Source: Candidatus Firestoneibacteriota bacterium
GTDB taxonomy: Bacteria > Oederibacteriota > D2-FULL-39-29 > JBBTED01
Length of the DNA: 64,000 bases
NCBI GenBank assembly: GCA_038042445.1
Contig: JBBTED010000021.1
Span: 68,085-132,084, forward strand
Direction: 5' to 3'
Shown here: piece by piece, positions 2,719-47,809 of the stretch
How positions within the stretch are numbered: position 1 is the stretch's first letter
How the letters are laid out: the number at the start of each line of letters is the position of its first letter
The notes under the pieces: generated by a model
Database searches by the model: none
Told to the model about the DNA's origin: nothing
Seen by the model: the letters and a program-made list of their open reading frames with translations, nothing else
Position numbers and translations under genes: made by a program

Positions 2719-2730
2719 AATGTATACTCC

Positions 2731-3762: not shown

Positions 3763-3913
3763 TTAGATTTCTCAAATTTATTCACACCTTCTATTTGCCT
3801 AAAGGACATTTTTAATTTGGCAGACAGTGTCTGCGAAATCTCTTTAGAAGATAAAGCTTTGCTCCCCTGTGTTTTTATAATAACAATTCTCCTCATTTAA
3901 TCCCCTACTAAAC

Positions 3914-5657: not shown

Positions 5658-5683
5658 AAAATTTCTCCTTTTTTAAAGTTAAA

Positions 5684-7408
5684 TTATTGTTTATCTTTTT
5701 TTGTAAAATAATCCTGCCGCTCGTGATAATAACCCACAGCAAAACGAGCCTGTTCATCAAGCGTTAGATGCGACGGCAAATCATCCTTCAGGGCATCAAA
5801 AATTTCTCCGATTTCTTTTTCAAAATTCACTTTACGTCCAGGATTAAGTTTTGCCAGATGATGATTTTTCAGCTTAAGCAGTTGCGGAAAAACAGTTATA
5901 GGCGTCGCCGACACCGCGCCATAAAATCTATCGCGGATGGTCGCGTTAATCTTCGGGTTGGCTTCCTCCTGAATTTTTTCAAGCACAGCAAACAACCGCC
6001 CCAATCGATATGCCGTGTTTATGTTACTTCTGTCTAATGACATAAGCACCTCCTTTTCTGGTTTTTTATAAAATTTATTAAATCTGTTAATATAAGCTTT
6101 AAGAATCGCCGCGCGAACCCTTGTAACTTGTTGTTCAGCCCGAATACGACGGATACACTGCTGAAGCAATGTTTGCGGATACGGCGTTCCTTCAAGTATG
6201 CTGACAACAACCTGGCCAGCAAGATTTGGCGGGACATTATCCATTTTATAATCAAACGCTGTCGCGCTTAAAATTTTGAGTAACGGCATATATCTCTGAT
6301 ACTCTGGTTCATTATGCTCTAATTTCATCTCAAAATCTTCAAAATGTTGTTTTATTTTTTCTGCAAAATCGCGGATAGCACCGGTTTTCCAAAAACGCAC
6401 AGAAATACGCGCTGAGTTTGGCGCAAGCCCCAGAACATAAAAGCGATTGCCTTCGTCAAGAGGCAGTTTGCCGGAATGTAATGCCTCATATAAATTCTTA
6501 ACAGCCTTAACGCCTTTCTCAGGATCAGCTTTATCTGTTTTAAAATACCATCGGAAGTCAGCCTCAAAATCATATTTTTCAGATTGTTTTTGAGACCAGA
6601 AAAGCACTGTAGTGTCTGCAATTGATATTTTATTTTGTGAATCTTTTCCAAGTAACATATTTAAAGCAGTACTATAAGCAAATGCAACTTTTTCACTAAC
6701 AGGAGAATTATAACTTTGCTTCTTACCATAGGAATTAAACGCAGGAAGATTAAAAGAAACAATAGAAGCACCTTGAGTATTTGTTCCACGCACACCTTTT
6801 ATTGAAGAATGTAACCGTGCGATATTTGATATTTCCCCTGTCACACTGCAAATACTCTTTTGAACATTTTCATCAATGGAAAATTCTTTTTTTTCTTTTG
6901 GTAAAACATCGCAAATTGTTTGGAAATCGCTTCCTTCTATTTTAAAACTAACAAATGGATTAGATTCCAACATCTCTTTCCATGATTCACTTGAGCTATT
7001 TGATTTTTTTATCTGATCACTAGGTTGAGAATCAAGAAACTTAACAATAGCTTTAATATCACAATGATTAATTTTTGCATTTAAAATACGTTTTTTAAAA
7101 GCATCAAATCTTTCATGAACATCCTTACGATTTCTTGGATTGGCTCCCAATGCATACTCAATATTATCCCATAGTAAAAATGGTTTAATACCCGTTGTTC
7201 TTTTCTCTCCTTGCGGTACAAGAAATACATTTGCACGTTTCTTATTACCGTTTATTTGACGAGTGTCATTAATCCTTAAAAATTTACCCTCTTTATCAAT
7301 TACAACAAGAAATGGGATTTCTTTCCATTCCCAACCTTCAGGCGCTATTTTGCCTTCAGTATTAGCCGCTTTTCTTTGATAATATTCATACAATGCCTGT
7401 AAAATCAT
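5684..7408 (-). CDS. cas8c: Type I-C large subunit Cas8c (Csd1)
   Basis: 574 aa starting MILQALYEYYQRK, as in Csd1 family members. Its size and its position between cas5 and cas7 match I-C. Confidence 0.88.
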   Translation of the reverse strand: MILQALYEYYQRKAANTEGKIAPEGWEWKEIPFLVVIDKEGKFLRINDTRQINGNKKRANVFLVPQGEKRTTGIKPFLLWDNIEYALGANPRNRKDVHERFDAFKKRILNAKINHCDIKAIVKFLDSQPSDQIKKSNSSSESWKEMLESNPFVSFKIEGSDFQTICDVLPKEKKEFSIDENVQKSICSVTGEISNIARLHSSIKGVRGTNTQGASIVSFNLPAFNSYGKKQSYNSPVSEKVAFAYSTALNMLLGKDSQNKISIADTTVLFWSQKQSEKYDFEADFRWYFKTDKADPEKGVKAVKNLYEALHSGKLPLDEGNRFYVLGLAPNSARISVRFWKTGAIRDFAEKIKQHFEDFEMKLEHNEPEYQRYMPLLKILSATAFDYKMDNVPPNLAGQVVVSILEGTPYPQTLLQQCIRRIRAEQQVTRVRAAILKAYINRFNKFYKKPEKEVLMSLDRSNINTAYRLGRLFAVLEKIQEEANPKINATIRDRFYGAVSATPITVFPQLLKLKNHHLAKLNPGRKVNFEKEIGEIFDALKDDLPSHLTLDEQARFAVGYYHERQDYFTKKDKQ

Positions 7409-8595
7409 CGCCGCACCTCCTTATCCGTCTGGGGTTTTGGAATGGGTTGGTTCTGTTCCCAATAAGCGCGGTCGTTTTCAATTAAATGCTGGATTTCTTC
7501 AGGTTTGGGAAGCACAACCATATAGCGCGATACAAAAAGCTGATGATCCAAACCGCCGACTGCGTATTCAACTTTTGTCTGATCCTTATCCGTACACAGG
7601 ATTAATCCAATTGGCGGATTATCCCCTTCGGTCATCATTTGATCTTTCCAGTAATTAAGATAAAAATTCATCTGGCCGGCGTCGCCGTGCTGAAATCTTC
7701 TGATCTTCAGATCAATAAGCAGATGACAGCGAAGAATACGATGGTAAAAAACAAGGTCTATATAATCATTTTCATTACCAACTGTAATTCTCTTCTGCCG
7801 GGCTTCAAAACAAAATCCATTTCCCAGTTCAAGCAAAAATGATTGTAAGTGATTAAGAAGAGCATCTTCAAGCGTTGATTCATGATACTGTGATTTTTCC
7901 GCTAATCCGGTAAATTCCAGAACATACGGGTCGCGAATAATGTCTGCGATTGTCTGAGGCATTTCAATTGCCTGTTTTCTACCCGCTTCAATCACAGCTT
8001 TTTTATCTGTCGACAACCCCGTTCTTTCATAAAGAAGCGAACCAATTTGCCGCTGAAGCTGACGTTTGGACCAATTACCTTTTAAGCATTCATTTTCATA
8101 AAACGCGCGCTTCCATGGATCGTCAATAGATATCAGTTCTACAAAATGAGTCCATGATAAATTTATAAGAAATTTAACCGCAAGAGGTTTTGGTAATTTT
8201 AATTTTCCTGTGTCTAATTTGCTCACCGCTGGCGGGCATTTTGAAAACATATTTATATTTTTTGGCAAAACAAATAAGTTCACCGCTGGTGAGCATATTT
8301 GTTCAGCAATCTGCGGATACATCTGATAAAAAAGACGCATTCGTTGAAGCATCTGCCGGCTGCATCCGGCTATGTTCCGCTTTTGTAAATCAACGGATAA
8401 GCGTGACAACAAGCTCTCCCCATACTCAGCCCGGTCTTTACCTTTTTGTTCATACTCAATGATATATGCTCCAATAAGCCAGTTACGTAAAATAAGAAAG
8501 CGATTTACCGTTCCAGCCGCACCAGATTGAGCCTGCTTATGGACTTTGCTGATGGTATCTATCAATGCGGAATAATTCAATTTTTCAGATTTCAT
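7405..8595 (-). CDS. YhcG/DUF1016 family PD-(D/E)XK nuclease embedded in the cas operon
   Basis: About 396 aa. The N-terminal domain (RNWLIGAYIIEYEQKGKDRAEYGESLLSRLSVDLQ...RLFYQMYP) and middle domain (SWTHFVELISIDDPWKRAFYENECLKGNWSKRQLQRQI) match DUF1016_N. The C-terminal NDYIDLVFYHRILRCHLLIDLKIRRFQHGDAGQMNFYLNYW matches the YhcG nuclease core (DLLFYHR...IELK...GQ.NFYL). Start ATG 8595-8593 overlaps the cas5 TGA as ATGA. Stop TGA 7407-7405 overlaps the cas8c ATG as ATGA. Confidence 0.75.
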   Translation of the reverse strand: MKSEKLNYSALIDTISKVHKQAQSGAAGTVNRFLILRNWLIGAYIIEYEQKGKDRAEYGESLLSRLSVDLQKRNIAGCSRQMLQRMRLFYQMYPQIAEQICSPAVNLFVLPKNINMFSKCPPAVSKLDTGKLKLPKPLAVKFLINLSWTHFVELISIDDPWKRAFYENECLKGNWSKRQLQRQIGSLLYERTGLSTDKKAVIEAGRKQAIEMPQTIADIIRDPYVLEFTGLAEKSQYHESTLEDALLNHLQSFLLELGNGFCFEARQKRITVGNENDYIDLVFYHRILRCHLLIDLKIRRFQHGDAGQMNFYLNYWKDQMMTEGDNPPIGLILCTDKDQTKVEYAVGGLDHQLFVSRYMVVLPKPEEIQHLIENDRAYWEQNQPIPKPQTDKEVRR

Positions 8596-9344
8596 TTCCG
8601 CACCTCCTCGCTGTCCCATAAAGGAATAACTATTACACCATTATCTATCTTTGCCCGAAAAAATGCCGGCATTGGATTATTGATGTCTGTAAAATCCATG
8701 TCGTAAAGCATAAAACCGAGTTCTCTTGTTTCATCAATAGGCTTTTTTTCTTTTTTCGGTTCTTCAATCAGCCTGAACATACACGAAAATTCGCGGCAAC
8801 CCAAATAAGGACGATTGAAACATTGCCCTTTTCGCGCGCGGCGTTCAAACATCGCGTTATATTTTCCCGGATTTTCGTCTTTTGGATCCCCTTCAAACTC
8901 AGTTTTTTCTTCTTTATCAATCAAATACTCTGGAACAGGACTATAAGTTTTACTTCTTTTACCTAACGGTATAAATACAAGTTCCGCGTGTATTCGATAT
9001 TTAACATCCCTCAAAAAAAGCCCCGCGCGTTGTTGACGAACATCTTCGATGAAAAGTCCATCTGTTCGGTCGCTCATTACCGCGCCAACCTCATTGCGTC
9101 TTACAGATATCCATTTAATTGGATTTAACACTTCAATCTTTTTAACCTGCCATCTGATTGCCGGCTTCCAGAAAATCGCTTCAAAAATCGCCCGGCTGGC
9201 AGATGGCGTGATAACATCATAACTCACGCGTTCAACCTTCATCTCAGGCCGGGTAAAACAGGCGTAATCGCCCCAGACTTCAAGGCAAAAAGTTTTGTTA
9301 AAAAATGTAGACATATTTTCAATATCCTCCTTTCTAATAACCAT
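8592..9344 (-). CDS. cas5: Type I-C Cas5c (Cas5d) pre-crRNA processing subunit
   Basis: FCLEVWGDYACFTRPEMKVERVSYDVITPSA is the classic Cas5d N-terminal motif. An alternative start at M (9314) is possible. Confidence 0.9.
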   Translation of the reverse strand: MVIRKEDIENMSTFFNKTFCLEVWGDYACFTRPEMKVERVSYDVITPSASRAIFEAIFWKPAIRWQVKKIEVLNPIKWISVRRNEVGAVMSDRTDGLFIEDVRQQRAGLFLRDVKYRIHAELVFIPLGKRSKTYSPVPEYLIDKEEKTEFEGDPKDENPGKYNAMFERRARKGQCFNRPYLGCREFSCMFRLIEEPKKEKKPIDETRELGFMLYDMDFTDINNPMPAFFRAKIDNGVIVIPLWDSEEVRK

Positions 9345-9354
9345 ATTTTAGTAG

Positions 9355-11688: not shown

Positions 11689-11699
11689 TTTAAACCTTT

Positions 11700-34138: not shown

Positions 34139-35191
34139 TTAATCCCCCTTTAACAAAGGGGGTATGGGAGATTTATTAAACCATTGAATAAATTTGCCTA
34201 CTCGCTCTTTAATTATAGAATTAGCTTTTTCAAGCTCCTGCTCTCTATCAGCTATATTCTCATTCACTATTTTTTGCAAATCATCAATATTATACAAATA
34301 AACATTTTCTATTTTATTAACTTCTTCATCTATATCTCTTGGCACAGCAAGATCTATAAAAAATATTGGTCTGTATTTTCTTAAAGGCATTATGGTTTTT
34401 ATATCAGATTTATGAATTATATAATTTTGGGCACTCGTAGAACTTATAACAATGTCAATCTCTCTGATCTTTACAAACTTATCTTCAAATCCAACTGATT
34501 CACCATTAAACTTTTGCGCAAGTTCATCTGCACGAGATATCGTCCTATTGGCAATATAGACTTTTTCAACTCCACGCTCCTGCAAATATTTAAGTGCTAA
34601 TTCACTCATTTCGCCTGCGCCAATTACCATAACTTTTTTGCCTATTAATTCTCCAAATATACGTTCTGCCATATCAACAGCAACAGAACTAAGAGATAAT
34701 GCTCCTTTATTTATACCAGTATTTGCACGAACATATTTACCCGCACCTATAGCATTCTGAAACAAAACATTCAAATATTTAGACGTAAATTTATTAGCCT
34801 GCGCTATAGAATATGCTTTTTTAACCTGACCAAGAACTTCATTTTCACCAATTACCATAGAATCAAGACCACTTGTAACTTTAAAAAGGTGTTCTACTGA
34901 ATAAGGGATTGAATGATAAAAAAATATCTTTTCCAGTTCTGCAATATCTAATTTACCTACTTCAGAAAAAAATTGCTTTGTTTTTTTTATAGTGTCATTT
35001 AAATCCAAAGTTGTACAATATATCTCTGCTCTATTACATGTAGAAAGAACAACACATTCTCCCAAAGAAACTTCTGATTTAATCTTTTCAAGAAAATATA
35101 TTAGTTTATCTTCCTGTATAGAAAATTTTTCTCTTATTTCTACTGGAGCCGTCTTGTGATTTACACCAAAAACCATTATATTTGGATTCAT
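34139..35191 (-). CDS. hemA: Glutamyl-tRNA reductase
   Basis: VLSTCNRAEIYC active-site Cys motif, NAD(P)-binding GAGEM; 350 aa. The last 7 codons (PPLLKGD) are encoded by a GC-rich palindromic repeat. Confidence 0.9.
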   Translation of the reverse strand: MNPNIMVFGVNHKTAPVEIREKFSIQEDKLIYFLEKIKSEVSLGECVVLSTCNRAEIYCTTLDLNDTIKKTKQFFSEVGKLDIAELEKIFFYHSIPYSVEHLFKVTSGLDSMVIGENEVLGQVKKAYSIAQANKFTSKYLNVLFQNAIGAGKYVRANTGINKGALSLSSVAVDMAERIFGELIGKKVMVIGAGEMSELALKYLQERGVEKVYIANRTISRADELAQKFNGESVGFEDKFVKIREIDIVISSTSAQNYIIHKSDIKTIMPLRKYRPIFFIDLAVPRDIDEEVNKIENVYLYNIDDLQKIVNENIADREQELEKANSIIKERVGKFIQWFNKSPIPPLLKGD

Positions 35192-35998
35192 TTAATTATG
35201 AAAATTTGTAGGAAATAATAAATTTATTCCGATAAAAGAAAATATCATAAATACAAAAGATGCTATTATTATCCATGCTATTTTTTTCCCTCTAAAAAAA
35301 CCAAATATATGCAAATGCAATAATATTGCATACGTAAACCATGTTATAACTGAAAAAATTTCTTTAAAACTTCCAGACCAATAAACCCCTTCCAAGTTCC
35401 CAAGCCAAAATGCACCAACTATCATTCCTCCAGTTAAAAATAAAAATCCGATTTTAATAGACTGATAACCTAAATTATCCACAATCTGAAGTGCTGGAAC
35501 AGTTTTTGAAGAAAGTATGTCTGATGCATGCTTCTTGATTTTTCTTTCCTGCCATAGATATAAAATTGCACAAACAAATCCTGCTGTAAAGCCTGCGTAT
35601 CCCAAAAAAGTTAAGGTTGTGTGTACCAACAACCACAAATTTGAGAAATAAATCTCTTGTGGCTGGACTTCTTTTAAAAATATCTTAACCACAAGTAAAA
35701 TCATCGCTATTGGCAACAAAATAAAATTCAATGTTTTTACTTTATATTTCAGAGTTATAACTCCAGTTAAAAACACAAGCATCCACGCATAAAATGGCAA
35801 TGCATTAACTATAGAATTTACTGAAAAACATCCTTCTTTGGAATACTTTAGGACAAAATAGGAAGTATGCAAAATAAATGCAATCCATAGCGTGAATTGT
35901 CCATAGAAATTCAACTCACGTTTATTTATAATTGATTTTATATAACTTGCAAAACTTGCAAGGTAAAACAGCAAACTTATTAAAATAATATTTTCCAT
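35192..35998 (-). CDS. HemX/CcsA-family cytochrome c assembly membrane protein
   Basis: 268-aa polytopic membrane protein directly downstream of hemA, as B. subtilis hemX is. Trp-rich segment GVYWSGSFKEI resembles the CcsA WWD region. Confidence 0.55.
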   Translation of the reverse strand: MENIILISLLFYLASFASYIKSIINKRELNFYGQFTLWIAFILHTSYFVLKYSKEGCFSVNSIVNALPFYAWMLVFLTGVITLKYKVKTLNFILLPIAMILLVVKIFLKEVQPQEIYFSNLWLLVHTTLTFLGYAGFTAGFVCAILYLWQERKIKKHASDILSSKTVPALQIVDNLGYQSIKIGFLFLTGGMIVGAFWLGNLEGVYWSGSFKEIFSVITWFTYAILLHLHIFGFFRGKKIAWIIIASFVFMIFSFIGINLLFPTNFHN

Positions 35999-36081
35999 AA
36001 AGATTTTTAAAACCCAAGAATAGAGCAGACAAGTCTGCCCCTACGGGTCCAATTTGAGTATTATAAAATACATTGAACTTT

Positions 36082-36190
36082 ATGTAAAGAATAAAAAAAC
36101 CACACCTATATAAGTGTGGTTTTTTTAAAACTCCAAACTAACGTGTAATTATCTGCGGATGTGCGGAGAGGTATATTAAACACACCGCAG
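36082..36190 (-). terminator. Bidirectional rho-independent terminator (36100-36127) plus about 65 nt conserved 3-prime UTR module, copy 1
   Basis: AAAAAAACCACACCTATATAAGTGTGGTTTTTTT hairpin flanked by A- and T-runs. The flanking ATGTAAAGAATAAAAAAACC and the AAACTA..CGT..GCGGAGAGGT..AAAC.CACC block recur at 42901-43010. Confidence 0.6.
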
Positions 36191-36233
36191 AAGTATTAAA
36201 ATTTCATCACTATACCGACATAAACACTAATAT

Positions 36234-38519
36234 TTACCAGTTATATTTTAAACCGATGTAGCCAACATGTGCCGTAAAATCCCTAAGGCTGTCGCCCAAA
36301 AAAATTGCGTTGGGACTAGAAACACCGGCTGCTGTTAAACCTGCGACAACAGGGACATTCTCAACGGCAAAATCCTCAACATCAAAAATAGTCAGAATGT
36401 AACCTCCCACCAAAACCAATCCTTCACCAATCGTATATTCCGGACGAATAGCTAATTCCTGGAGTGCGCTCTTGGTATCTGCTGGATCAGTTTCAACCAC
36501 AGTAGTTGTTCCTGGAATATCGCTGACTGTTATTTTTCCCTTGCCTATGGAATAATTGTATCCCACCATAAGACCTAATTTGGACAAAGGAGAAAAATTC
36601 ATATCAACACCGATAGTATGAAAAATATCATTATTTGTAGCTGTCCAATCATTTGCTGCATCTTGAGTAAGCACTGCGCCTGAGACATTAGACCGTTCTG
36701 TTGACTTAACATTTTGGATGTCATAAAGTAAAGAAATATCGAAAGTTTCATCTAACATCCAATCTGCACTTACTGTTCCACCCTGAGCACTGGATTCCAG
36801 AATACCGTACATATAATTGGTATTAGTAGCAATACCACCAGTTAAATCACCTATACCTGGTTTATATTTATCATCACGGTTAAATGCAGCAAGAGAGAGT
36901 CCAATACCGCCAAGGTCTGTCCATTGAACAGTACCCTTAACTTCGTTTCGGTCCCTGTCTGCCACATCCACCCGACGCAATCCAGGAAGCTCAATCAAAT
37001 CGCCTGCAGAGTTTTTATAGTCACTAATCTCAAAATCATCCATTCGCCTTAATCCCAAAATATAACCAGCTCGGACAGAAAACGAGGAAACAGGTCTATA
37101 GACCAGAGTTCCACGCAAAACACTTTCCTTTGTCTTTTCCACCTCACGTTTTGTTCTTTCCATAATCTCAAGACCACCACCAGCCGAAGCAGTCACATTG
37201 GAAAATACATCCATATCAATATCCACATCCAGATTTTGTCTATGAGGACTATAAACCTTGCTAGTATAAATGCTTGAACTCCAGTTCTGGTCAGCGGTTG
37301 CTTTTCCAGGAAAAACGATTTCCACGGTCTTGTTGCTGACTACTTCGGAACGATAACCAACCCTTGTACCCAAAGAATCCCACGGTCTACTGCTTAAAAT
37401 ATAGGATTGATTAAAAATTCCCCTATTACCATTTAGGCTTGAAACAGGCAATGCAGTCGGATCATAGGCATTAACCGTAGGATTGGCATAAGATCCCGGA
37501 ACAATGGCTGTATTAATAGTATAAGGAAGAAAAATTGCGTTTTGTGTCAAAAGAGCATAACTCAAAGTGGTATGAAAATAACTGTTTAATGGAAGATCGA
37601 GCATATTCACGTTAAATGTAGCCATATGCTGAGTATTGTCTGGATAAAGTGAAGTCCGTCCGGATTTTGAATTCGTACCACCACTATAACCAGAGGCAGA
37701 AGCTTGATCAGTCAATCTTTTGGGATTATCCCAAGTCATTTCTGTTACCTTATTGTGAAATAAAGAATATTCGTAAGCAAGATCCACATTCCAATTTTTT
37801 TGCGTCAAAGATGTGTCCAAAGAAAACTTGGTTGTTTCATAATCAACAGGTTCAGGCAACTCAATTGTGAAAAAGCCCAAAGTTCCTCCAATTGCCTTGG
37901 TTCCGGATTTATTCTCACGATTTGCGCTAATTTTGAAGCCAACATCACCCAAACTGGGAAGACCAATATCAAACCCATAGGAATCTCTAAGCAACTTGAG
38001 GGGTACCGCATTTGTATTTTTGGCTAAATCCAACAACAGATCATTGGTTGTGGGAGACGTGGTAGTTGTGGATGCCTGTAGTTTCCGCTGTATCTCATCG
38101 GATAGAGTAAAAACTCCAGCACTGATTTCCGAAAAAGGCGTCCTTGAAATAAGACTAAGAGAATGAGGTGTCTTGTCCCACCATGCGCTAAAGGACAACC
38201 CATTTTCTCGTTTATAAAGAAACCTGGCGAACTGATCATCTCTCATCACGTTTTTAGCAGTGAAAGAAATACCATAATCTGGGCTTTCAAAATCAAGCCT
38301 GTATTTGTTAATAGAAAGCCCTTTAGGAATAACCCGGTATTCTTCAAATTTAGCTTCTTGAACGTCAAGGTTTTTATAGTTAAAACCAAACTCAATCTCC
38401 TGCTTGACGTTTTCCGCGGCAAAAAGAGACCCCGTCATAATTACGAGTGCACACAAAAACAGTATTCGCATTTGTTTTCCCCTCCTCATTAGATTTATAA
38501 CTTCTTCTTCAATTTCCAT
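36234..38519 (-). CDS. MtrB/PioB-like large outer-membrane beta-barrel (porin-cytochrome conduit sheath)
   Basis: 761 aa. Signal peptide (MRILFLCALVIMTGSLFAA), beta-strand periodicity throughout, C-terminal ...GYIGLKYNW. Immediately downstream of a decaheme cytochrome in the same operon. Confidence 0.5.
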   Translation of the reverse strand: MEIEEEVINLMRRGKQMRILFLCALVIMTGSLFAAENVKQEIEFGFNYKNLDVQEAKFEEYRVIPKGLSINKYRLDFESPDYGISFTAKNVMRDDQFARFLYKRENGLSFSAWWDKTPHSLSLISRTPFSEISAGVFTLSDEIQRKLQASTTTTSPTTNDLLLDLAKNTNAVPLKLLRDSYGFDIGLPSLGDVGFKISANRENKSGTKAIGGTLGFFTIELPEPVDYETTKFSLDTSLTQKNWNVDLAYEYSLFHNKVTEMTWDNPKRLTDQASASGYSGGTNSKSGRTSLYPDNTQHMATFNVNMLDLPLNSYFHTTLSYALLTQNAIFLPYTINTAIVPGSYANPTVNAYDPTALPVSSLNGNRGIFNQSYILSSRPWDSLGTRVGYRSEVVSNKTVEIVFPGKATADQNWSSSIYTSKVYSPHRQNLDVDIDMDVFSNVTASAGGGLEIMERTKREVEKTKESVLRGTLVYRPVSSFSVRAGYILGLRRMDDFEISDYKNSAGDLIELPGLRRVDVADRDRNEVKGTVQWTDLGGIGLSLAAFNRDDKYKPGIGDLTGGIATNTNYMYGILESSAQGGTVSADWMLDETFDISLLYDIQNVKSTERSNVSGAVLTQDAANDWTATNNDIFHTIGVDMNFSPLSKLGLMVGYNYSIGKGKITVSDIPGTTTVVETDPADTKSALQELAIRPEYTIGEGLVLVGGYILTIFDVEDFAVENVPVVAGLTAAGVSSPNAIFLGDSLRDFTAHVGYIGLKYNW

Positions 38520-38547
38520 TATTTATATTAGTTTTTTAAAATCTCAA

Positions 38548-39492
38548 TTACCGCATAAAATAAACACCCGATGGATGATTTGATCCATGTATATTCACAT
38601 GACAATTTTGGCAAGAACGATTAATAATGCGAGAGTTTTGTTGTTTCACAGCCGAATCATCATAAAGTGTGCTCGGGTGCCTAGTCCCCACATGACACCG
38701 CTGACATAAAAGAAACGGACTTTTGGCTATGAGCATCTTGTCCTGCAAAGAACCATGAGCATCGTGACAAGTCAAACAATTTTCCTGAACAGGAGCATGC
38801 TCCCAAAGAAAAGGACCACGCTTTTCCGCATGACAGGTAAGACAAAGCTCCCTTGTAGAAGCAGTTTTTAAATTTTTGGCATATGGGGATCCATGAGGGT
38901 CGTGGCAAGTAACACAGGAAAGTTTTCCCTCCTTAGTCGGCATATGAGAAGCTTTAGACATATGAGCCTTTTTATCTTTATGACATTGAAAACAATTTTC
39001 AGTCGACGTTTTCTTTTTCAGCAATTTCCCCTGATCCGGTCCCGGCACAGAAGATTTATGAGAATTGTGACAAGAATTACAGGTTAAACCTTGACGCGAA
39101 TGTGTGCTCCCCTTCCAATTAGGATGGGTGTTGCCATGACATTGCAAACAAGAATTTGCTAATTCTTTTGGATTTGTCTTTGGTCCAAGAATAGTGGCAT
39201 AACCAGCCGCATTTTTATCTCCTGCAGCTTCCGCATGAAGCGAACCTGCACCATGACAAGTTTCACAATGTTCAGCTTGATTCAATTGCTTTTCTTTAAC
39301 AAACGTTTTCGCATGAAAACTTTTTTGAAATTCCTTTCCATGGTCATCATGACAAGTCATACATTTCTCAGAACCAATATGTCCAGCTTTTTCCTCTGAG
39401 TACGTAACTCGCACAAGAGTAAAAAAACATACAATGCTTACAATACAAAATATATTTACTATATATTTCATTTTACCCATATTATCCTCCAT
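38548..39492 (-). CDS. MtrA/PioA/DmsE-family periplasmic decaheme cytochrome c
   Basis: 314 aa with a signal peptide and ten CxxCH motifs: CMTCH, CETCH, CLQCH, CNSCH, CFQCH, CVTCH, CLTCH, CLTCH, CQRCH, CQNCH. Confidence 0.75.
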   Translation of the reverse strand: MEDNMGKMKYIVNIFCIVSIVCFFTLVRVTYSEEKAGHIGSEKCMTCHDDHGKEFQKSFHAKTFVKEKQLNQAEHCETCHGAGSLHAEAAGDKNAAGYATILGPKTNPKELANSCLQCHGNTHPNWKGSTHSRQGLTCNSCHNSHKSSVPGPDQGKLLKKKTSTENCFQCHKDKKAHMSKASHMPTKEGKLSCVTCHDPHGSPYAKNLKTASTRELCLTCHAEKRGPFLWEHAPVQENCLTCHDAHGSLQDKMLIAKSPFLLCQRCHVGTRHPSTLYDDSAVKQQNSRIINRSCQNCHVNIHGSNHPSGVYFMR

Positions 39493-39556
39493 TTCTCTAA
39501 TTCTATAAATTATTTCCTAATATATAAGTTTATAACTATACTTGAGTTATTATATA

Positions 39557-39573
39557 TGCAATTTTCGTGCCAA
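39557..39573 (-). promoter_or_regulatory. Sigma-54 (-24/-12) promoter upstream of the decaheme cytochrome operon
   Basis: The minus strand reads TTGGCACGAAAATTGCA, a perfect TGGCACG-N4-TTGCA. It lies about 65-80 nt upstream of the start codon at 39492. Confidence 0.7.
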
Positions 39574-39867: not shown

Positions 39868-41277
39868 TTATTCTTTTGATTCAAGAATTCCTAACTTTAT
39901 TGCTCTATATCTCAAAGAATCACGACTAATTCCAAGAATTTTTGCGGCCCGCACTTGATTCCCATTCGTTTTATGCAATGCCTGCAAAATAAGTTCTTTT
40001 TCAAATTCTTTGAGTGTAGATTTTTCTTTGGCTGTTTTGTTAAATTCTGGCATTTCTCCTTCATAACTTCTTAATTCTAAAGGCAAATGAGTAAGATTAA
40101 TATTCTCTACCGCTCCGATTATAATTGCACGTTCTATAATATTTTTTAATTCTCTTATATTCCCAGGCCAGTGATACCGCAAAAAAACATTTTTTACTTC
40201 CTTAGACAAAACAGGTGGATTTTTTTTCTTCAATTCATAGCTATATTGTTTCAAAAAATGCTCTGTGAGTAAAATAATATCTTCCATCCGTTCTCTAAGT
40301 GGAGATAATTTTAAAGTAAAAGCATTTAATCGATAATATAAATCATTACGGAATTCGCCTATTTTAATTGCCTTGGTTAAATCTTTATTTGTTGCTGCAA
40401 TAATTCCAACATTAACTTCTATATCTGAAACAGCACCCAGTGGTCTAAAAGATTTATTTTCAATTAATTGCAAAATTTTTGCCTGAAGACTTAGACCCAT
40501 ATCACCTATTTCATTTAAAAATAATGTTCCTTCATCTGCACTATGCACAAGACCTTTTTTTGCTTGTTTTGCATCTGTAAACGCGCCCTTTTCATAACCA
40601 AACAATTCACTTTCAAGCAAATTATCCGGTATAGCAGCACAATTTATCTCAACGAATGGCTTCTTTATCCTTTTACTTTCGTAATGTATTGCTTTTGCAA
40701 GAATATCCTTACCTGTGCCACTCTCCCCACAAATTAAAATTGGAGATGCACTGCTATTTACTAATTTTTTTGCAAATTCCACTACTTCCAGTATTGACTT
40801 GTTTTTCCCTACAATACTAGAAAAACTATATTGCCTTAATTGTTGATTCCTTAACGATTTTGCTTCCACATAAACACTTGCATTTTCAATAACTTTATCA
40901 ATAAGCAATCTTAACTCATCTAAATCAAATGGTTTATTAATATAATCATTCGCTCCTCTTTTCATAGCCTCTATAGCAGTAGAAATGTCTCCAAAAGCTG
41001 TAATCATTATCACAGGAATTTCTAAATCGGATTCTTTTATTTTTTTCAAAATTTCCAAACCATCAATTCCAGGGAGCTTAATATCACATAAAACCAAATG
41101 AGGATGAAAATTTATAAATTTTTCAAAACCATCTTCGCCAGTTTCTGCCACTACTATATCATAACCATATTTAAATAAATTTTCCTTCAAAGACCACCTT
41201 ATTAATTCCTCGTCATCAATTACTAAAATTTTCTTTTTAATCATAATTTTTTCCCTTATGGTTGATATTCTTTTCAC
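39868..41277 (-). CDS. Sigma-54-dependent response regulator (NtrC family: REC-AAA+-HTH)
   Basis: REC domain (ILVIDDEELIRWSL...D), sigma-54 interaction domain (GESGTGKD...GAFTDA...ESELFGYEKGAFT) and C-terminal Fis-type HTH. Confidence 0.9.
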   Translation of the reverse strand: MKRISTIREKIMIKKKILVIDDEELIRWSLKENLFKYGYDIVVAETGEDGFEKFINFHPHLVLCDIKLPGIDGLEILKKIKESDLEIPVIMITAFGDISTAIEAMKRGANDYINKPFDLDELRLLIDKVIENASVYVEAKSLRNQQLRQYSFSSIVGKNKSILEVVEFAKKLVNSSASPILICGESGTGKDILAKAIHYESKRIKKPFVEINCAAIPDNLLESELFGYEKGAFTDAKQAKKGLVHSADEGTLFLNEIGDMGLSLQAKILQLIENKSFRPLGAVSDIEVNVGIIAATNKDLTKAIKIGEFRNDLYYRLNAFTLKLSPLRERMEDIILLTEHFLKQYSYELKKKNPPVLSKEVKNVFLRYHWPGNIRELKNIIERAIIIGAVENINLTHLPLELRSYEGEMPEFNKTAKEKSTLKEFEKELILQALHKTNGNQVRAAKILGISRDSLRYRAIKLGILESKE

Positions 41278-41287: not shown

Positions 41288-42778
41288 TCAATTTTTATTC
41301 ACAGGAAGTTTTATAACAAAACAGGTTTTTTTCACTTCCTCACTTGTAAATTCAATTATTCCATTATGCATTTTAACAATATTCTGGCTGGTAAAAAGCC
41401 CTAAACCTGTACCACCAGGCTTTGTTGTAAAAAAAGGCTGAAAAATTTTGTCTACATATTTACTTGGTATTCCTTTTCCAGTATCACAAATTGAAATTAT
41501 CACAAAATCATCTAAAAGTGAAGTGTTTATAGCTAACACTCCACCTTTAGGCATTGCACTGATTGCATTCAAAAAAATATTTACAAAAACCTGAAGTATT
41601 AATTCTGCGTCTAAATTTAAATCAGGAATTTCCTTACTGTACTGTTTTTCTACTTTTATTTGATGATCAGTAATATGTTTATGGACAAAGAAAAAAGCTT
41701 TTTCAATAATCTCCTGAATGTTAACACTTTTTATTTCTAATGTTATTGGCTTAGAATAATTTAACAAATTTTCAACAGTTTTTGCTAATCTATTCACCTG
41801 AATATTTATTTTTTCATATATTTCTTTTTGTATCGGTATTTTTGCAGATTGCTCTAATGTCTGAAAAGCAGCTTTTATACCTGCCAATGGATTTTTAATC
41901 TCATGAGCTAAACTTGCGTAAAGTTTTCCTAAAGATGCAAGTCTATCTGCATGGGCAATCTGTTCCTGATGATATTTCTATATTGATTCTTTAGATTGTT
42001 TCAGATTATCCACCATTTTATTGAAATTTTCAGCTAAAACATCCAATTCATTATTTTCTTTAATATCCACATTTACATTCAAATCACCCTGACTTACTTT
42101 ATTAAATGCTAAAAGCAATTTTTGTATAGGACGATTCACTACCTTTTTCATAAAAAATACAAGTACAAGTGATATAACTAATAAAATAGCAAGAGTCATT
42201 ATAATATGCATTTTAGCATTATCCATTATATTATCCATAAGAGATTTCCATGAAATGGATATTTCCAAAAAACCTATTATACTTTCATTTGACTTATGAC
42301 AACCATAACATTTCTTTTTATTTACAATTTGCTGTTTAAATACATAAATAGGTTCTCCATTTTTATAAGTCAGTTCTGCGGATTTATTATTTTTTGATAC
42401 AGACTCAACTTTTAATATTCTAACACCAGACAAATGTTGTCCTTCATTTAAATTTTTTAGTACACTATCCAATTTTTTCTGTTTGCCAGATAACATAATA
42501 TCTTCAATACTTTTAAGGATAGTATCTGCTATAACTTTTGCATGTTCTGATTCAGCTTTCAACCATTCTTTTTTTTGAAATTTTATATCAAAATAACCGG
42601 CAATTAAACTTACAATAGAAAATACCAAAATAATAACAAAAACCAATTGGAAACTTAAATTACGATGAACTTTTCGCATATTTTTTATACACCACACAAA
42701 ATTCACAGGTTTTATGAGTTCCAAGCACTTCATCACACATTGTATTTTTAATTTCCCAGCATGGTAATTTATGGCCAA
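41288..42778 (-). pseudogene. Sensor histidine kinase with periplasmic CxxCH heme motif, split by an in-frame TAG (41978-41980) just upstream of the H-box
   Basis: The upstream part (41978-42778) has TM segments, periplasmic CYGCHK and HAMP (...NFNKMVDNLKQSKESI*). In the same frame after the TAG comes KYHQEQIAHADRLASLGKLYASLAHEIKNPL (DHp H-box), then the HATPase_c domain (41288-41887; the track ORF starts at TTG). Confidence 0.65.
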
Positions 42779-42872
42779 AGTAAGAAGGACAAGTTTTATA
42801 AACAGAACAATCTTTCATTTTCCAACAAGGTATTTTGTCTGTCCAAAAACTTTTGGTTTCATTCATAGGCAA
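42660..42872 (-). CDS. Small Cys-rich protein (9 Cys; duplicated PCW-x3/4-C motif)
   Basis: 70 aa MPMNETKSFWTDKIPCWKMKDCSVYKTCPSYFGHKLPCWEIKNTMCDEVLGTHKTCEFC. Immediately upstream of, and overlapping, the sensor kinase; a coding call is plausible but unverified. Confidence 0.4.
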   Translation of the reverse strand: MPMNETKSFWTDKIPCWKMKDCSVYKTCPSYFGHKLPCWEIKNTMCDEVLGTHKTCEFCVVYKKYAKSSS

Positions 42873-43046: not shown

Positions 43047-44201
43047 TTAGAACATATATTGAGCTTCTATAGAAAATTTGTTTGTGTTTTTGGCACTCGC
43101 CTGACTAAGTGTATATTCGCCTACGAATCTGCCATACATATATGGTCTCCAGACCAAACCCATTACAGGTCCCTGTGTTTCATCAACAGTTTTTTCTGTA
43201 TTAGAATCAAAATAGTCATACCTCACATAAGGAGTCACTACATCTGAAAGCAGTTTATACCCTACTTCAAGATAACCACCAAGACTATACTGTTTGTCAG
43301 CACCTGCATTTTTTGTATTTCTTCCTGACAATAAAAGTCCTGTTAATGTCCAGGTTGAAGTAAAATAATTGAACATAGGGCCAACTTGATAGAAATTGTC
43401 ATCAAAACCAGTCATTGGAGCTTGTCCTATGTATCCATACATTCCAACTATACTTCCATCACTATCTAATTCATAATCAGCAGTAACATATACGTCTTTA
43501 AAATTATTATTATCTACTACGTTAAAATTACTAGCACCTGTGCCATTAACTACACCCAAAGAAGCCATAACATTCCAACTACATTTATGGCTTAATTCTA
43601 TGCCATAATTTCTTTGGAATGGTTTATACGGATTGCTTCCAACAACACTTGTAAGAGCTAATGATCTGTCCTTCCCTAATCTTCCACCTGTTCCATGAAT
43701 ATATAGAAGCTGTGAAAGAATCTGACCGAATCTAACTGTTGTATAACTCTTTTCATCTCCTGTGGTATACTGAATAAATGCTTCTGCTAATTTGCTACGG
43801 GCAAAATCATTAAAATCACTTGTTCCAGAATTTTTGCCTGAATTTTCATGAAAATACATTTCTGCAAAATATGAAAATCCACTACCCAATGCACCTCCTG
43901 TATACAAAGAAAATGCATGCTGTTCAAAGCTGCTTATTTTTTTATCTTCAGCATTAAATCTGACTTTCCCAGTAAAACTTGCATAATCACTCAAATTCTT
44001 TCCTGCTTCTTCATTTGCCATCATATGGCCCATTCTTAAAAAATCCTGACCTGTTTTGTTAAGCTTATTTACATTCCAATGACACATAGTGCAATCAGCA
44101 CCATATTTTCTCGCCCATGCTGCAATTGCAAAAGAATCTTTTGCAACTACACCTAAAGCAAAAGTAATTATTGCAATTACTAACAACATTTTTGCTTTCA
44201 T
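43047..44201 (-). CDS. Cyc2-like fused monoheme cytochrome c / outer-membrane beta-barrel (candidate Fe(II) oxidase or EET porin-cytochrome)
   Basis: 384 aa. Signal peptide MKAKMLLVIAIITFALGVVA, then a single CxxCH (CTMCHW) about 15 aa after the predicted cleavage site. The remainder has beta-barrel-like alternating strands and ends ...IEAQYMF. Confidence 0.5.
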   Translation of the reverse strand: MKAKMLLVIAIITFALGVVAKDSFAIAAWARKYGADCTMCHWNVNKLNKTGQDFLRMGHMMANEEAGKNLSDYASFTGKVRFNAEDKKISSFEQHAFSLYTGGALGSGFSYFAEMYFHENSGKNSGTSDFNDFARSKLAEAFIQYTTGDEKSYTTVRFGQILSQLLYIHGTGGRLGKDRSLALTSVVGSNPYKPFQRNYGIELSHKCSWNVMASLGVVNGTGASNFNVVDNNNFKDVYVTADYELDSDGSIVGMYGYIGQAPMTGFDDNFYQVGPMFNYFTSTWTLTGLLLSGRNTKNAGADKQYSLGGYLEVGYKLLSDVVTPYVRYDYFDSNTEKTVDETQGPVMGLVWRPYMYGRFVGEYTLSQASAKNTNKFSIEAQYMF

Positions 44202-44713: not shown

Positions 44714-44979
44714 ATATATTATATAGCTGCAGAGCAAAGCTCTGCTAAAAAACAGCAAAGCTTTCGCTTTGCTGCTACATAAACCATACAAAATCCATTA
44801 AATATTAGAATGGTTAATCTATTATACATTATTTATGCAAGAACTATGCCAATTTTTTAATGTATTATAAAATGTATTGAAATTACTGTAGTTATATTGA
44901 TAAATTTAATAGTTAATAGAAGAATATTACCATAGATAATTGTATTGTTTTAGGACAATATTTGAATAGTTGTATTATT

Positions 44980-46350
44980 TTAAGACAAATCTTTAGATAT
45001 TGAATATTGCTGGATTTTCCTATAAAGAGTATCTCTGGATATTCTTAATATTTCAGCAGCTTTTAATTTATTTCCATTTGTAGATTTAAGAACTGAAATT
45101 ATAGCAGATTTTTCTGATTCCTCAAGGGAACATACTTTTACAGTATCAGAATTATTAGTTTCTAATACTCGCATATGCGAAGGTAAATCCTGTTCAACAA
45201 AAATATTTTTATTCACTTTAATTGCGAATAAACCTTCTATTAAATTTTCCAATTCACGAACATTGCCTGGCCAGTTGTATTTTACTAAAACATCCAATGC
45301 TTCACGTTCAAAACCCTCTACTTTCTTTTTGTATTTATCATTAAATTTATCAATAAAATATTTCACAAGAAGTGGAATATCTTCTTTTCTTTCTCTAAGT
45401 AGAGGAATTGTGATAGTAATAGTGCTTAATCTATAGTACAGTTCCTTTCTTATGCCACTTTTATTTCCATCAGAAATTATATTATGCGATGATGCAGCAA
45501 GAATTCTTACATTTACAGCTATTTCTTTTATATCACCTACAGGCCTTATTTTTTTGTCCTGAAGGACTCTTAAAAGTTTTGCCTGACTTTCCTTTGGCAT
45601 TTCACTAATTTCATCAAGCAATATTGTCCCTCCTTCACTTGCTCTGAATATACCTATATAATCCGAATTCGCACCTGTAAAACTTCCTTTTTTATAACCA
45701 AAAAGTTCACTCTCAACAAGATTTGAAGGAATACCTCCACAATTTATCGGCATAAATGTATTATTTTTTCTATTACTTAAATTATGTATTGCTCTTGCAA
45801 CAAGTTCTTTTCCAACACCAGTTTCTCCAAGTATCAAAACAGGACAATCTACAGATGCCGATGCCCTTATTCTATCAAAAACATTTTTCATTAATTTACT
45901 TTCTCCAATAATATTTTCGATGCTATATTTCGAATTAAGCTGGCTCTGTAAATGAGCAACATCAGTCTCAAGTTTCATTATTTTAAATAAGCGATTAATA
46001 CAAATCATAATCTGATCTTTAGTAAAAGGTTTAATTATATAATCAGAAGCTCCCATTTTTATTGCTGTAACTGCATCCTGAATTGTTCCATAACCAGTCA
46101 TCATAATAACTTCAATAGCAGGACTATGTTCTTTGATTTTTTTCAAAAGCTCAAATCCATTCATTTGACCCATTCTAATATCGGTTATAATAATTTTAAC
46201 GTCCTGCTCAATCTTGATTTTCTCAATAGCTTCCTCACCAGAATATGCCTTAACAGTAGAAAATCCCTGTCTTAAAAAAAGTTTTGCGCAGGTCTCTACC
46301 ATACCCTTATCATCATCAACAATTAAAATTTTTATCATATCATGTATCAT
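44980..46350 (-). CDS. Sigma-54-dependent response regulator (NtrC family), paralog 2
   Basis: REC, AAA+ sigma-54 activator (GETGVGKE...ESELFGYKKGSFTGA) and HTH domains; 456 aa. Confidence 0.9.
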   Translation of the reverse strand: MIHDMIKILIVDDDKGMVETCAKLFLRQGFSTVKAYSGEEAIEKIKIEQDVKIIITDIRMGQMNGFELLKKIKEHSPAIEVIMMTGYGTIQDAVTAIKMGASDYIIKPFTKDQIMICINRLFKIMKLETDVAHLQSQLNSKYSIENIIGESKLMKNVFDRIRASASVDCPVLILGETGVGKELVARAIHNLSNRKNNTFMPINCGGIPSNLVESELFGYKKGSFTGANSDYIGIFRASEGGTILLDEISEMPKESQAKLLRVLQDKKIRPVGDIKEIAVNVRILAASSHNIISDGNKSGIRKELYYRLSTITITIPLLRERKEDIPLLVKYFIDKFNDKYKKKVEGFEREALDVLVKYNWPGNVRELENLIEGLFAIKVNKNIFVEQDLPSHMRVLETNNSDTVKVCSLEESEKSAIISVLKSTNGNKLKAAEILRISRDTLYRKIQQYSISKDLS

Positions 46351-46403
46351 GCTGAATTTATTTCAGCATCTCTTTTAGACCCTGAAACAAGTTCAGGGTG
46401 ACA
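46348..46403. repeat. Family A two-hairpin palindromic repeat, intergenic copy 2
   Basis: CATGCTGAATTTATTTCAGCATC ... GACCCTGAAACAAGTTCAGGGTGACA. Near-identical to 16938-17005. Confidence 0.75.
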
Positions 46404-46423
46404 ATTCAAAGCTTGTCCTGAAT

Positions 46424-47809
46424 TCACTTCAATATTGGAAAACTTATTGTAAAAGTTGTATATTTATTTACTTCACTTGCAACAGTAATTGTTCCTCTGA
46501 GTTCTTCTATTAGTTTCCTACATATCGCTAAACCAAGACCTGTTCCATTCTTTGCTTCTTTTGTAGTAAAAAATGGCTCAAATATTTCGTTGAGGTTTTC
46601 TTTAGATATACCAGAACCATCATCTGTAAAATCAACCTCTATAAAATTATTATCAATAACTTTTGTTTTCACACTAATAGTTCCACCCTTTTCAATAGCA
46701 TCAAAGGAATTAGAAAAAAGGTTTAAAAAAATCTGTTCAAGTTGATCACAAGATGCAAGCACTTTCACTTTATCAGTTTCAGCAACGTCTATTTTCAAAG
46801 AGACATCATTCTTTCTAAAAATGTGGCTAAGTATTTCTATTATATCAGTTAAAACTTTATTGAAGTTACATTCCTGCAATTTTTCTTTTGCTTTAGTAGA
46901 ACGAGAAAAACCCAACAAATGTTCAACTATTTCTTTGCACCGTTGTAATTGATGATTTATAAATTTTAATTCTCCAAGATAACTTTTGTTTTTTATATCT
47001 TCCATCAACATTTCTGCACGTAACATTGCAGAAGCTAATGGAGTTTTCATTTGATGTGCGATTCCAGCCGCAATTTGTCCAACCAATACCATTTTATCAA
47101 CCCTATTTATTTTTTCTTCCTGAAGCCTTACAATTTCTTCCTGTGAATTCTCCAAAGCATTTAACATTGAATTGAATTGTTTTGAAATAACTCCAAATTC
47201 ATCATTTCTGGATACAGATAAACGTTTTTTTGTAACACCCTTTTCTACCTGCTTCATCGCATCCAATAATACTTTTATAGGCGTATTTACTATAAAAAAT
47301 ATTGCTAAGCCAATCAAAAGTGAAGTGATTATTACAATAGCAAAAAAAGAGTATATATGTATTTTTAACTCTTTTTTTACACGTAATAAAGCAGGAGTAA
47401 TAGATTTAGAAATACGTATATATCCTAATACAGGTTTTGTATTTTTATGACATTTAAAACACTCTTTTTTGTTAAAAATTGGAACAAAATAAACAAAATT
47501 ATCCCTTAAATCTATATTTACACCCTTTGCTATTATCTTAACCTCTTGATTGCTATTCAAAATCGTAATTTCATTAAAACCAATATTTAATACGAGTTTT
47601 TTTATAAATTTTTCTATTTCACCAATTTTTTTATCCAACATTGAATTTTCAATCTGTTGATGAATTGTTTTACAAAAAAGATTTAGCCGACGTGTTTCAT
47701 CATCAATAACCCATTCATTTGTGTGAGATATCTCTACATATAAATATAACCCAAGCAATACAAACAGAATAAATGTTATTGCAATAATTAATTTAAAAGC
47801 TATTTTCAT
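46424..47809 (-). CDS. Sensor histidine kinase with periplasmic CxxCH heme-binding motif (intact paralog)
   Basis: TM, periplasmic domain with NKKECFKCHKNTKP, second TM, HAMP, H-box GIAHQMKTPL, HATPase_c (GTGLGLAICRKL); 461 aa. Confidence 0.85.
   Translation of the reverse strand: MKIAFKLIIAITFILFVLLGLYLYVEISHTNEWVIDDETRRLNLFCKTIHQQIENSMLDKKIGEIEKFIKKLVLNIGFNEITILNSNQEVKIIAKGVNIDLRDNFVYFVPIFNKKECFKCHKNTKPVLGYIRISKSITPALLRVKKELKIHIYSFFAIVIITSLLIGLAIFFIVNTPIKVLLDAMKQVEKGVTKKRLSVSRNDEFGVISKQFNSMLNALENSQEEIVRLQEEKINRVDKMVLVGQIAAGIAHQMKTPLASAMLRAEMLMEDIKNKSYLGELKFINHQLQRCKEIVEHLLGFSRSTKAKEKLQECNFNKVLTDIIEILSHIFRKNDVSLKIDVAETDKVKVLASCDQLEQIFLNLFSNSFDAIEKGGTISVKTKVIDNNFIEVDFTDDGSGISKENLNEIFEPFFTTKEAKNGTGLGLAICRKLIEELRGTITVASEVNKYTTFTISFPILK

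What the first reader, a model, noticed from the sequence alone, without database searches (positions are those of the whole stretch)
41288..42778. Heme-c sensor histidine kinase interrupted by a single in-frame TAG immediately before its H-box
The sensor half ends ...NLKQSKESI-TAG. The same frame continues KYHQEQIAHADRLASLGKLYASLAHEIKNPL..., a textbook DHp domain, into an intact HATPase. The track second ORF only begins at a TTG. TAG is a genuine stop elsewhere here (for example tig), so this is not an alternative genetic code. It is either a recent nonsense mutation (nascent pseudogene), a sequencing/assembly error, or a split that yields a kinase-less sensor plus a sensor-less kinase. The intact paralog (46424-47809) has the same CxxCH periplasmic motif.
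Basis: seen in the sequence. Interest (0 to 1): 0.5.

Follow-up and report, generated by a model that had tools for sequence, protein, structure and literature searches.

The report
One-base stop in sensor kinase gene
A normal sensor kinase gene of an uncultured groundwater bacterium carries a stop codon caused by a single G-to-T difference that appears in only one of several near-identical public assemblies, so it is either a very recent non-fixed mutation or a sequencing artefact.

Summary
On the minus strand, a 463-codon histidine kinase gene (42679..41288) has one in-frame TAG at codon 234 (41980..41978). The codon lies in the linker helix between HAMP and the H-box. The domain order is TM, periplasmic CxxCH PAS-like sensor, TM, HAMP, HisKA, HATPase_c.

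The window is a 140-kb contig of a Candidatus Firestonebacteria MAG from Hainich groundwater well H52. Four other public assemblies of the same clonal population carry an uninterrupted 463-aa gene. One of them shows a single internal mismatch (this codon) across 44.5 kb shared with the window. Their gene matches the window's at every residue except this codon, which is GAG (Glu). The TAG allele is on record only in the window's own contig and in the Logan assembly of run ERR3858129, which probably uses the same reads.

TAG ends four other genes normally, so recoding is excluded.

The TAG is a private G-to-T single-base variant. It is either a real, non-fixed nonsense allele (about 0.5) or a technical artefact (about 0.4). 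Each replicate assembly carries its own private variants, mostly G:C-to-T:A. Only the raw reads can decide.

In context, the kinase and its NtrC-type regulator sit upstream of a perfect sigma-54 promoter that precedes a multihaem cytochrome and an MtrB/PioB porin. The finding is ordinary and of low interest.

The parts
41288..42679 (-). Sensor histidine kinase gene of 463 codons. Domain order: TM1, periplasmic CxxCH PAS-like domain, TM2, HAMP, S-helix, HisKA, HATPase_c. Interrupted by TAG at codon 234 in this window only.
   Evidence: Translation. Pfam and NCBIfam matches, AtoS/ZraS-like. Called as an intact 463-aa gene in L015, L016, L032 and L033.
41978..41980 (-). In-frame TAG at codon 234. 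The single differing base is window position 41980: T on the coding strand here, G (GAG, Glu) in all other assemblies.
   Evidence: This alignment column is variable in homologues, which have E/Q/K/A/S/D/R/V/H.
41981..42679 (-). N-terminal fragment CDS of 233 aa (TM, sensor, TM, HAMP) as annotated in the NCBI record (MEK6645551.1, 'HAMP domain-containing protein').
   Evidence: AF2 model with pLDDT 89.4.
42296..42310 (-). CYGCH haem-c attachment motif (C124, C127, H128) in the periplasmic domain.
   Evidence: Invariant in alignments of 21 and 50 sequences.
41288..41959 (-). C-terminal fragment as annotated by NCBI: 223 aa, 'ATP-binding protein' MEK6645550.1. It starts at ATT, seven codons after the TAG, and an AGGA lies 4 nt upstream. 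It contains the H-box and the ATPase domain.
   Evidence: DNA context.
41288..41887 (-). The alternative 199-aa ORF starting at TTG (the Prodigal-type call). It lacks the phospho-acceptor His259 (CAT 41905..41903).
42660..42866 (-). 68-aa Cys-rich ORF with two PCW motifs. It overlaps the kinase start by 20 nt and is the first gene of the unit.
   Evidence: Called in all assemblies. No Pfam or NCBIfam match.
39868..41244 (-). Cognate NtrC-family sigma-54-dependent response regulator of 458 aa. Intact.
39557..39572 (-). Perfect sigma-54 -24/-12 element, TGGCACGAAAATTGCA, between the regulator and the cytochrome gene. It is the only zero-mismatch match in the window.
36234..39492 (-). Likely target genes: a multihaem cytochrome (38548..39492, Paired_CXXCH_1) and an MtrB/PioB outer-membrane porin (36234..38519).
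44980..47809 (-). Paralogous intact two-component pair. The CxxCH sensor kinase is at 46424..47809 (27% identical) and the NtrC-type regulator at 44980..46350. A one-mismatch sigma-54 site follows at 44836..44851.

Best explanation
The gene is an ordinary two-component sensor kinase. Its periplasmic c-haem PAS-like sensor feeds through HAMP into HisKA and HATPase_c. It probably signals through the adjacent NtrC-type regulator to a sigma-54 promoter in front of a multihaem-cytochrome and MtrB/PioB porin module.

The gene is intact in the population (codon 234 = GAG, Glu). The window's TAG is a single G-to-T substitution carried only by the data of one replicate sample. I take it as most likely a real, very recent, non-fixed nonsense allele of the sub-lineage that dominated that sample. 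Translation then ends after HAMP and yields a 233-aa sensor stub without H-box or ATPase, which is a loss-of-function allele. No further decay has occurred.

Shown: the one-base difference, the intact gene in sister assemblies, and the domain content. Inferred: that the base is real in the DNA, the loss of function, and the regulatory target.
For: GAG and an intact 463-aa gene occur in ERZ1292620 (R1), ERZ1292622 (R2), Logan ERR3858128 and GCA_964358285.1. The protein is otherwise identical.

The GCA_964358285.1 contig matches window 4416-48944 with only this difference plus one 17 nt from its end.

The TAG allele is reproduced in an independently built Logan assembly of run ERR3858129, which is 100% identical to the window over four contigs. 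It is therefore the majority base in those reads and not a quirk of one assembler.

Sister contigs carry k-mer coverage of about 7 (names), and the window contig is 140 kb. Independent random read errors should not win a consensus at that depth (my inference).

A private variant of R2 (LpxB S169I) is likewise reproduced in a Logan assembly.

About 12% of all possible G>T/C>A changes in this window's genes create a stop, so a nonsense outcome is unremarkable.

There is no second lesion in the gene.
Against: No reads were available. The window contig and the Logan ERR3858129 contigs probably derive from the same reads, so the TAG may rest on a single read set.

The samples are replicate filters from one well in one campaign (PMC8672522), yet each replicate assembly has its own private variants. 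Six of the eight internal ones are G:C-to-T:A. They include a Ser-to-Tyr change in the MsbA Walker A motif and an adjacent double substitution.

That unselected-looking spectrum is what oxidative DNA damage or a channel-specific sequencing error would produce. A well-mixed population should not give different majority alleles in replicates.
Confidence: 0.5

Rival explanations
1. Technical artefact. The organism's DNA has GAG. The T at 41980 comes from damaged template (8-oxoG type) or from a systematic or low-depth sequencing error that reached the consensus of one roughly 7x metagenome assembly.
For: The TAG is private to one read set, while four other assemblies have GAG.

All three replicate assemblies of the same well carry private single-base differences, and six of the eight internal ones are G:C-to-T:A. 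These are one synonymous, four missense and one nonsense change, close to the unselected expectation of 8% synonymous and 12% nonsense for that class.

One of them hits the MsbA Walker A motif.

DNA was phenol/chloroform extracted and sequenced on a two-colour NextSeq 500 (PMC8672522). In that chemistry both G-to-T and C-to-A correspond to a spurious signal in the same channel (my own knowledge, not tested here).
Against: Two different assemblers give TAG for run ERR3858129, so T is the majority base there. At k-mer coverage of about 7, which implies read depth above 10, independent errors should not form a majority. One R2 private variant is also reproduced by a second assembler.
Confidence: 0.4
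2. Functional split. The allele is real and yields two working products: a membrane sensor-HAMP protein, and a soluble kinase core re-initiated at the ATT seven codons after the TAG. The core would be uncoupled from the sensor and possibly constitutively active on the regulator.
For: NCBI's annotation calls a 223-aa CDS from that ATT which keeps His259 and the whole ATPase domain. An AGGA lies 4 nt upstream of the ATT and only 18 nt separate stop and start.
Against: ATT starts are rare. The first canonical start (TTG 41887) lies after the phospho-acceptor His. No relative shows a split: all 120 listed homologues at or below 40% identity, and all sister assemblies, are single polypeptides. The allele is not fixed. 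There is no expression data.
Confidence: 0.05
3. Recoding. TAG is read as an amino acid here, through pyrrolysine, a suppressor tRNA or a reassigned code.
For: None beyond the intact downstream frame.
Against: Sister assemblies encode Glu (GAG) at this exact codon with identical flanks. TAG terminates four other genes at the ends of their Pfam profiles: Cas4, Tig, PBP_like_2 and HATPase_c_2. No tRNA with a CUA anticodon is in the window and Rfam finds nothing there. The aligned column is variable in homologues.
Confidence: 0.01

Closest known systems
Periplasmic c-haem PAS-like sensor domains of Geobacter sulfurreducens chemoreceptors GSU0935 and GSU0582 (PDB 3B42, 3B47; Pfam PF21563 Mcp40H-20_sensor)
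   Same: A single CxxCH motif sits in a domain of about 130 residues between two TM helices and is followed by HAMP. The best solved sensor-domain fold matches are 3b42 (E 8.7e-5) and 3b47 (E 5.5e-3). PF21563 is precomputed on many homologues and matches the paralog weakly.
   Different: The output here is a HisKA/HATPase kinase and not an MCP signalling domain. There is no sequence-level match to any PDB chain. Haem attachment is untested.
AtoS/ZraS/NtrB-type HisKA histidine kinases paired with NtrC-family sigma-54 activators
   Same: The HAMP-HisKA-HATPase_c core scores best against the AtoS and ZraS models. The adjacent regulator scores best against AtoC, NtrC and ZraR. A consensus sigma-54 promoter lies downstream.
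   Different: All scores fall far below the equivalog cut-offs (234 versus 646 bits for AtoS), so this is not an ortholog of any named system. The sensor domain is different. The nearest database relative outside its own population is only 38-40% identical.
Nonsense-interrupted genes (nascent pseudogenes or strain-level loss-of-function alleles) annotated as two adjacent CDS
   Same: A single premature stop with no other lesion. Both halves were deposited as separate proteins (MEK6645551.1 and MEK6645550.1).
   Different: It is not fixed. Other assemblies of the same population, near-identical over tens of kilobases, carry the sense codon. Its reality in the DNA is unproven.

Membership tests
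HisKA-type transmembrane sensor histidine kinase | DHp/HisKA domain with a phospho-acceptor His in an H-box | tested here: met
   PF00512 with E 7.8e-13 at residues 250-310. H259 in AHEIKNPL is invariant across 21 sequences.
HisKA-type transmembrane sensor histidine kinase | HATPase_c catalytic domain with N, G1, F and G2 boxes | tested here: met
   PF02518 with E 1e-21. N367/N371, D399-G401-G403, F413-P415-F416 and G423-L428 are all invariant and present.
HisKA-type transmembrane sensor histidine kinase | Sensor and kinase encoded in one uninterrupted reading frame | tested here: not met
   There is a TAG at codon 234 in the window. The feature is met in the four sister assemblies.
HisKA-type transmembrane sensor histidine kinase | Cognate response regulator encoded alongside | tested here: met
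   A protein with Response_reg, Sigma54_activat and HTH_8 domains lies immediately downstream.
GSU0935/GSU0582-type periplasmic haem-c PAS-like sensor | Conserved CxxCH motif in the periplasmic domain | tested here: met
   C124, C127 and H128 are invariant in 50 sequences.
GSU0935/GSU0582-type periplasmic haem-c PAS-like sensor | PAS-like fold matching the solved domains | tested here: inconclusive
   The AF2 model has pLDDT 89.4. Foldseek gives 3b42 at E 8.7e-5 with probability 1.0, but TM-score (target) is only 0.43-0.45 and rmsd is high. The Pfam PF21563 match is below its cut-off for the paralog and absent for this protein.
GSU0935/GSU0582-type periplasmic haem-c PAS-like sensor | Covalently bound c-type haem | not testable with these tools
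   This needs protein chemistry.
Pyrrolysine or stop-codon recoding site | TAG conserved at the site in orthologues, and TAG avoided as a terminator | tested here: not met
   Orthologues have GAG. TAG ends four other genes properly.
Pyrrolysine or stop-codon recoding site | tRNA-Pyl or suppressor tRNA, and pyl genes | tested here: not met
   The window holds only tRNA-Arg(CCT) and tRNA-Val(TAC). The rest of the genome was not available.
Fixed pseudogene | Lesion shared by the lineage and accompanied by further decay | tested here: not met
   There is a single lesion, it is absent from sister assemblies, and all motifs are intact.

The most novel reading that the evidence does not exclude
The TAG allele is real and segregates in the natural population. 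Re-initiation at the ATT 18 nt downstream releases a soluble, sensor-less kinase core that keeps the NtrC-type regulator phosphorylated. This would be a natural one-base 'uncoupling' mutation that switches the adjacent sigma-54-driven cytochrome and MtrB/PioB electron-transfer module on constitutively in a sub-lineage.
Probability: 0.04. Interest if true: 0.4.

Novelty: already known. Interest (0 to 1): 0.1.

Why it matters
It matters little as biology. A single private nonsense base in an otherwise intact and ordinary sensor kinase is a routine event in low-coverage metagenome-assembled genomes.

It has some practical value. The public record annotates the two halves as separate proteins (MEK6645551.1 and MEK6645550.1) when they should be one kinase or a flagged pseudogene. 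The G:C-to-T:A-skewed private differences between replicate assemblies also warn that single-base 'pseudogenes' in these MAGs need read-level confirmation.

The surrounding locus is mildly interesting for the physiology of Candidatus Firestonebacteria. It holds two haem-sensor two-component systems with sigma-54 promoters in front of a porin-cytochrome module.

Tried and rejected
- **Genome scan by exact DNA pattern.** I scanned GTDB species genomes for an exact pattern around the site with NNN at the stop codon and found no match.
- **Protein-seeded scans.** Scans of genome contigs and metagenome contigs returned only relatives at or below 34-51% identity, none usable for this codon.
- **First homologue search.** It returned nothing above 40% identity and did not show the organism's own alleles.
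- **Exact look-up of IlvB.** It failed. later showed that this allele exists only on the window's own contig.
- **What worked.** An exact look-up of the neighbouring paralog located the sister assemblies.
- **PDB sequence search.** The periplasmic domain matched nothing.
- **Recoding or pyrrolysine.** Considered and rejected.
- **Run-to-replicate mapping.** I could not establish which ENA replicate corresponds to which run. The pairing R2 = ERR3858128 and window = ERR3858129 is an inference from allele sharing.

Full report
**Observation**

The feature lies on the minus strand. Translating 42778..41288 in one frame gives a single internal stop, with the context ...NLKQSKESI*KYHQEQIAHADRLASLGKLYASLAHEIKNPL... 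The TAG occupies 41980..41978.

The mechanical ORF list shows a 266-aa ORF (41978..42778, TTG) and a 199-aa ORF (41288..41887, TTG). The true start is ATG 42679 (MRKVH...), as called in every public assembly. This gives 463 codons with the stop at codon 234.

Pfam places HAMP at 179-228, HisKA at 250-310 and HATPase_c at 357-461. NCBIfam scores the core best against AtoS and ZraS, but far below their cut-offs.

In an alignment with 19 database homologues and the paralog, every invariant kinase residue downstream of the stop is present. These include H259, N367, N371, D399/G401/G403, F413/P415/F416 and G423-L428. The stop falls in a variable column of the HAMP-to-DHp linker helix, where homologues have E, Q, K, A, S, D, R, V or H.

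At 32.7% GC, a 229-codon open frame after the stop has a chance probability of about 2e-8 (my arithmetic). This is one gene with one lesion.

**Genetic code**

Of 47 other long minus-strand ORFs, 30 end in TAA, 13 in TGA and 4 in TAG. The four TAG-terminated proteins are Cas4, trigger factor, a PBP_like_2 binding protein and a SpoIIE/HATPase_c_2 protein. Each reaches the end of its Pfam profile just before the stop.

The window holds only tRNA-Arg(CCT) and tRNA-Val(TAC), and Rfam finds nothing else. TAG is an ordinary terminator here.

**Relatives**

An exact-pattern scan and protein-seeded scans of genome and metagenome collections found nothing close. The large protein search found at best 38-40% identity.

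An exact look-up of the neighbouring paralogous kinase succeeded. It returned collinear contigs from ENA assembly ERZ1292622 (Hain_H52_02um_R2, cov 7) and NCBI GCA_964358285.1. In both, the kinase is an uninterrupted 463-aa gene. Their translations match the window's read-through at every residue except codon 234, which is Glu.

Base-by-base comparison shows GAG versus TAG, a G-to-T change on the coding strand at window position 41980.

A look-up of the intact protein added two more GAG carriers: ERZ1292620 (Hain_H52_02um_R1) and the Logan assembly of run ERR3858128.

The 233-aa and 199-aa fragments are on record in only two places:
- the Logan assembly of run ERR3858129;
- a 140,023-bp contig held by both ENA and NCBI, which is the window's own contig. 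It belongs to a MAG named Candidatus Firestonebacteria bacterium.

NCBI annotates the halves as MEK6645551.1 (233 aa, HAMP domain-containing protein) and MEK6645550.1 (223 aa, ATP-binding protein). The second starts at an ATT seven codons after the TAG.

**How clonal the population is**

The GCA_964358285.1 contig matches window 4416-48944 (44.5 kb) with two differences. One is position 41980. The other lies 17 nt from its contig end.

The four Logan contigs from ERR3858129 are 100% identical to the window over 17.5 kb. Other assemblies cover 59.6 kb of the window, and 41980 is the only site where the window is the outlier against two or more of them.

The other replicate assemblies have private differences of their own.
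- R2: 57677 (LpxB S169I), 55866 (MsbA Walker A GPSG[S]GKT Ser-to-Tyr), 50071 (IlvB L36I) and 23392 (synonymous).
- R1: 53460 (synonymous) and the adjacent pair 53373/53372 (synonymous, plus His-to-Asn).

Six of the eight internal private differences, including the TAG, are G:C-to-T:A transversions. R2's LpxB allele is also present in a Logan assembly.

According to the data paper, the H52 samples are triplicate filters from one campaign. DNA was phenol/chloroform extracted, libraries were NEBNext Ultra FS, sequencing was on a NextSeq 500, and each replicate was assembled separately with metaSPAdes (PMC8672522).

**Interpretation of the stop**

The population's gene is intact. The TAG is a private single-base variant of one read set. 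Two readings remain.

*Real, very recent, non-fixed nonsense allele.* Two assemblers agree for ERR3858129. Depth is not trivially low: sister contigs have k-mer coverage of about 7, and the window contig is much longer. Independent read errors should therefore not win the consensus. About 12% of possible G>T/C>A changes in these genes create stops, so a nonsense outcome is unremarkable.

*Technical artefact.* Replicates of the same water should not differ in majority allele. The private variants look unselected and are dominated by the class that oxidised guanine or a single-channel miscall would give. One of them hits a Walker A motif.

I put these at about 0.5 and 0.4. Only the reads can decide.

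A designed split has only the ATT/AGGA context and NCBI's gene call in its favour. The first canonical start after the stop lies beyond His259. No relative is split.

**What the gene does**

This part is inferred. The N-terminal 233 residues model confidently (pLDDT 89.4) as TM helix, alpha/beta sensor, TM helix and HAMP.

Among solved structures, the best sensor-domain matches are the c-haem PAS-like periplasmic domains of Geobacter GSU0935 and GSU0582: 3b42 at E 8.7e-5 and 3b47 at E 5.5e-3. The TM-scores are modest. CxxCH is invariant in 50 homologues. There is no sequence-level PDB match.

The gene order on the minus strand is:
1. a 68-aa Cys-rich ORF;
2. the kinase;
3. an NtrC-type regulator;
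4. a perfect sigma-54 element, TGGCACGAAAATTGCA (39572..39557), the only exact match in the window;
5. a multihaem cytochrome;
6. an MtrB/PioB porin;
7. a CcsA-like protein;
8. HemA.

The likely circuit is therefore a periplasmic redox or ligand signal sensed at the haem, passed through the kinase and regulator to sigma-54 transcription of a porin-cytochrome module. The TAG allele would remove the kinase from that circuit.

A paralogous intact pair lies just upstream (46424..47809 and 44980..46350). It is followed by a one-mismatch sigma-54 site and a 384-aa protein that carries a haem motif.

**Verdict**

The phenomenon is ordinary: a private nonsense SNV or consensus error in a low-coverage MAG. 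It is not recoding, and there is no evidence that it is a functional split. Interest is low.

Noticed in passing
window 1547-11766: A type I-C CRISPR-Cas locus: cas3, cas5d, csd1/cas8c, cas7 and cas4. A DUF1016/YhcG PD-(D/E)XK nuclease gene (7405..8619) is inserted between cas5d and csd1. The CRISPR array at 1547-2178 has a GC-rich 32-nt repeat, GTTTCAATCCACGCGCCCACGCGGGGCGCGAC, in a genome of 33% GC.
   Followed up: partly
window 43047-44201 (-): A 384-aa protein with an N-terminal CTMCH haem-c motif and a C-terminal part that looks like a beta-barrel and ends in Phe. It has no Pfam or NCBIfam match. It lies downstream of the paralogous two-component pair and of a one-mismatch sigma-54 site at 44836..44851. 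It may be a haem-bearing outer-membrane protein.
   Followed up: no
window 42660-42866 (-): A 68-aa Cys-rich ORF with two PCW motifs. It overlaps the kinase start by 20 nt and is called in every assembly, but matches no family. It may be a small partner of the sensor.
   Followed up: no
window 34139-39572 (-): A porin-cytochrome module in a Candidatus Firestonebacteria MAG: a multihaem cytochrome, an MtrB/PioB porin, a CcsA-like haem-handling protein and HemA. It sits behind a perfect sigma-54 promoter.
   Followed up: partly
window 57677, 55866, 53460, 53373/53372, 50071, 41980, 23392: Replicate assemblies of the same well differ only by private single-base variants, and six of the eight internal ones are G:C-to-T:A. 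They include a Ser-to-Tyr change in the MsbA Walker A motif. This suggests either library damage or sequencing bias, or an oxidative-type mutational spectrum in the population.
   Followed up: partly
L039 1-7942 (beyond the window's 64000 end): In the R2 contig, the region just past the window's end carries a phage-type integrase, an AlpA-like excisionase and several small HTH genes. It looks like an integrated mobile element.
   Followed up: no
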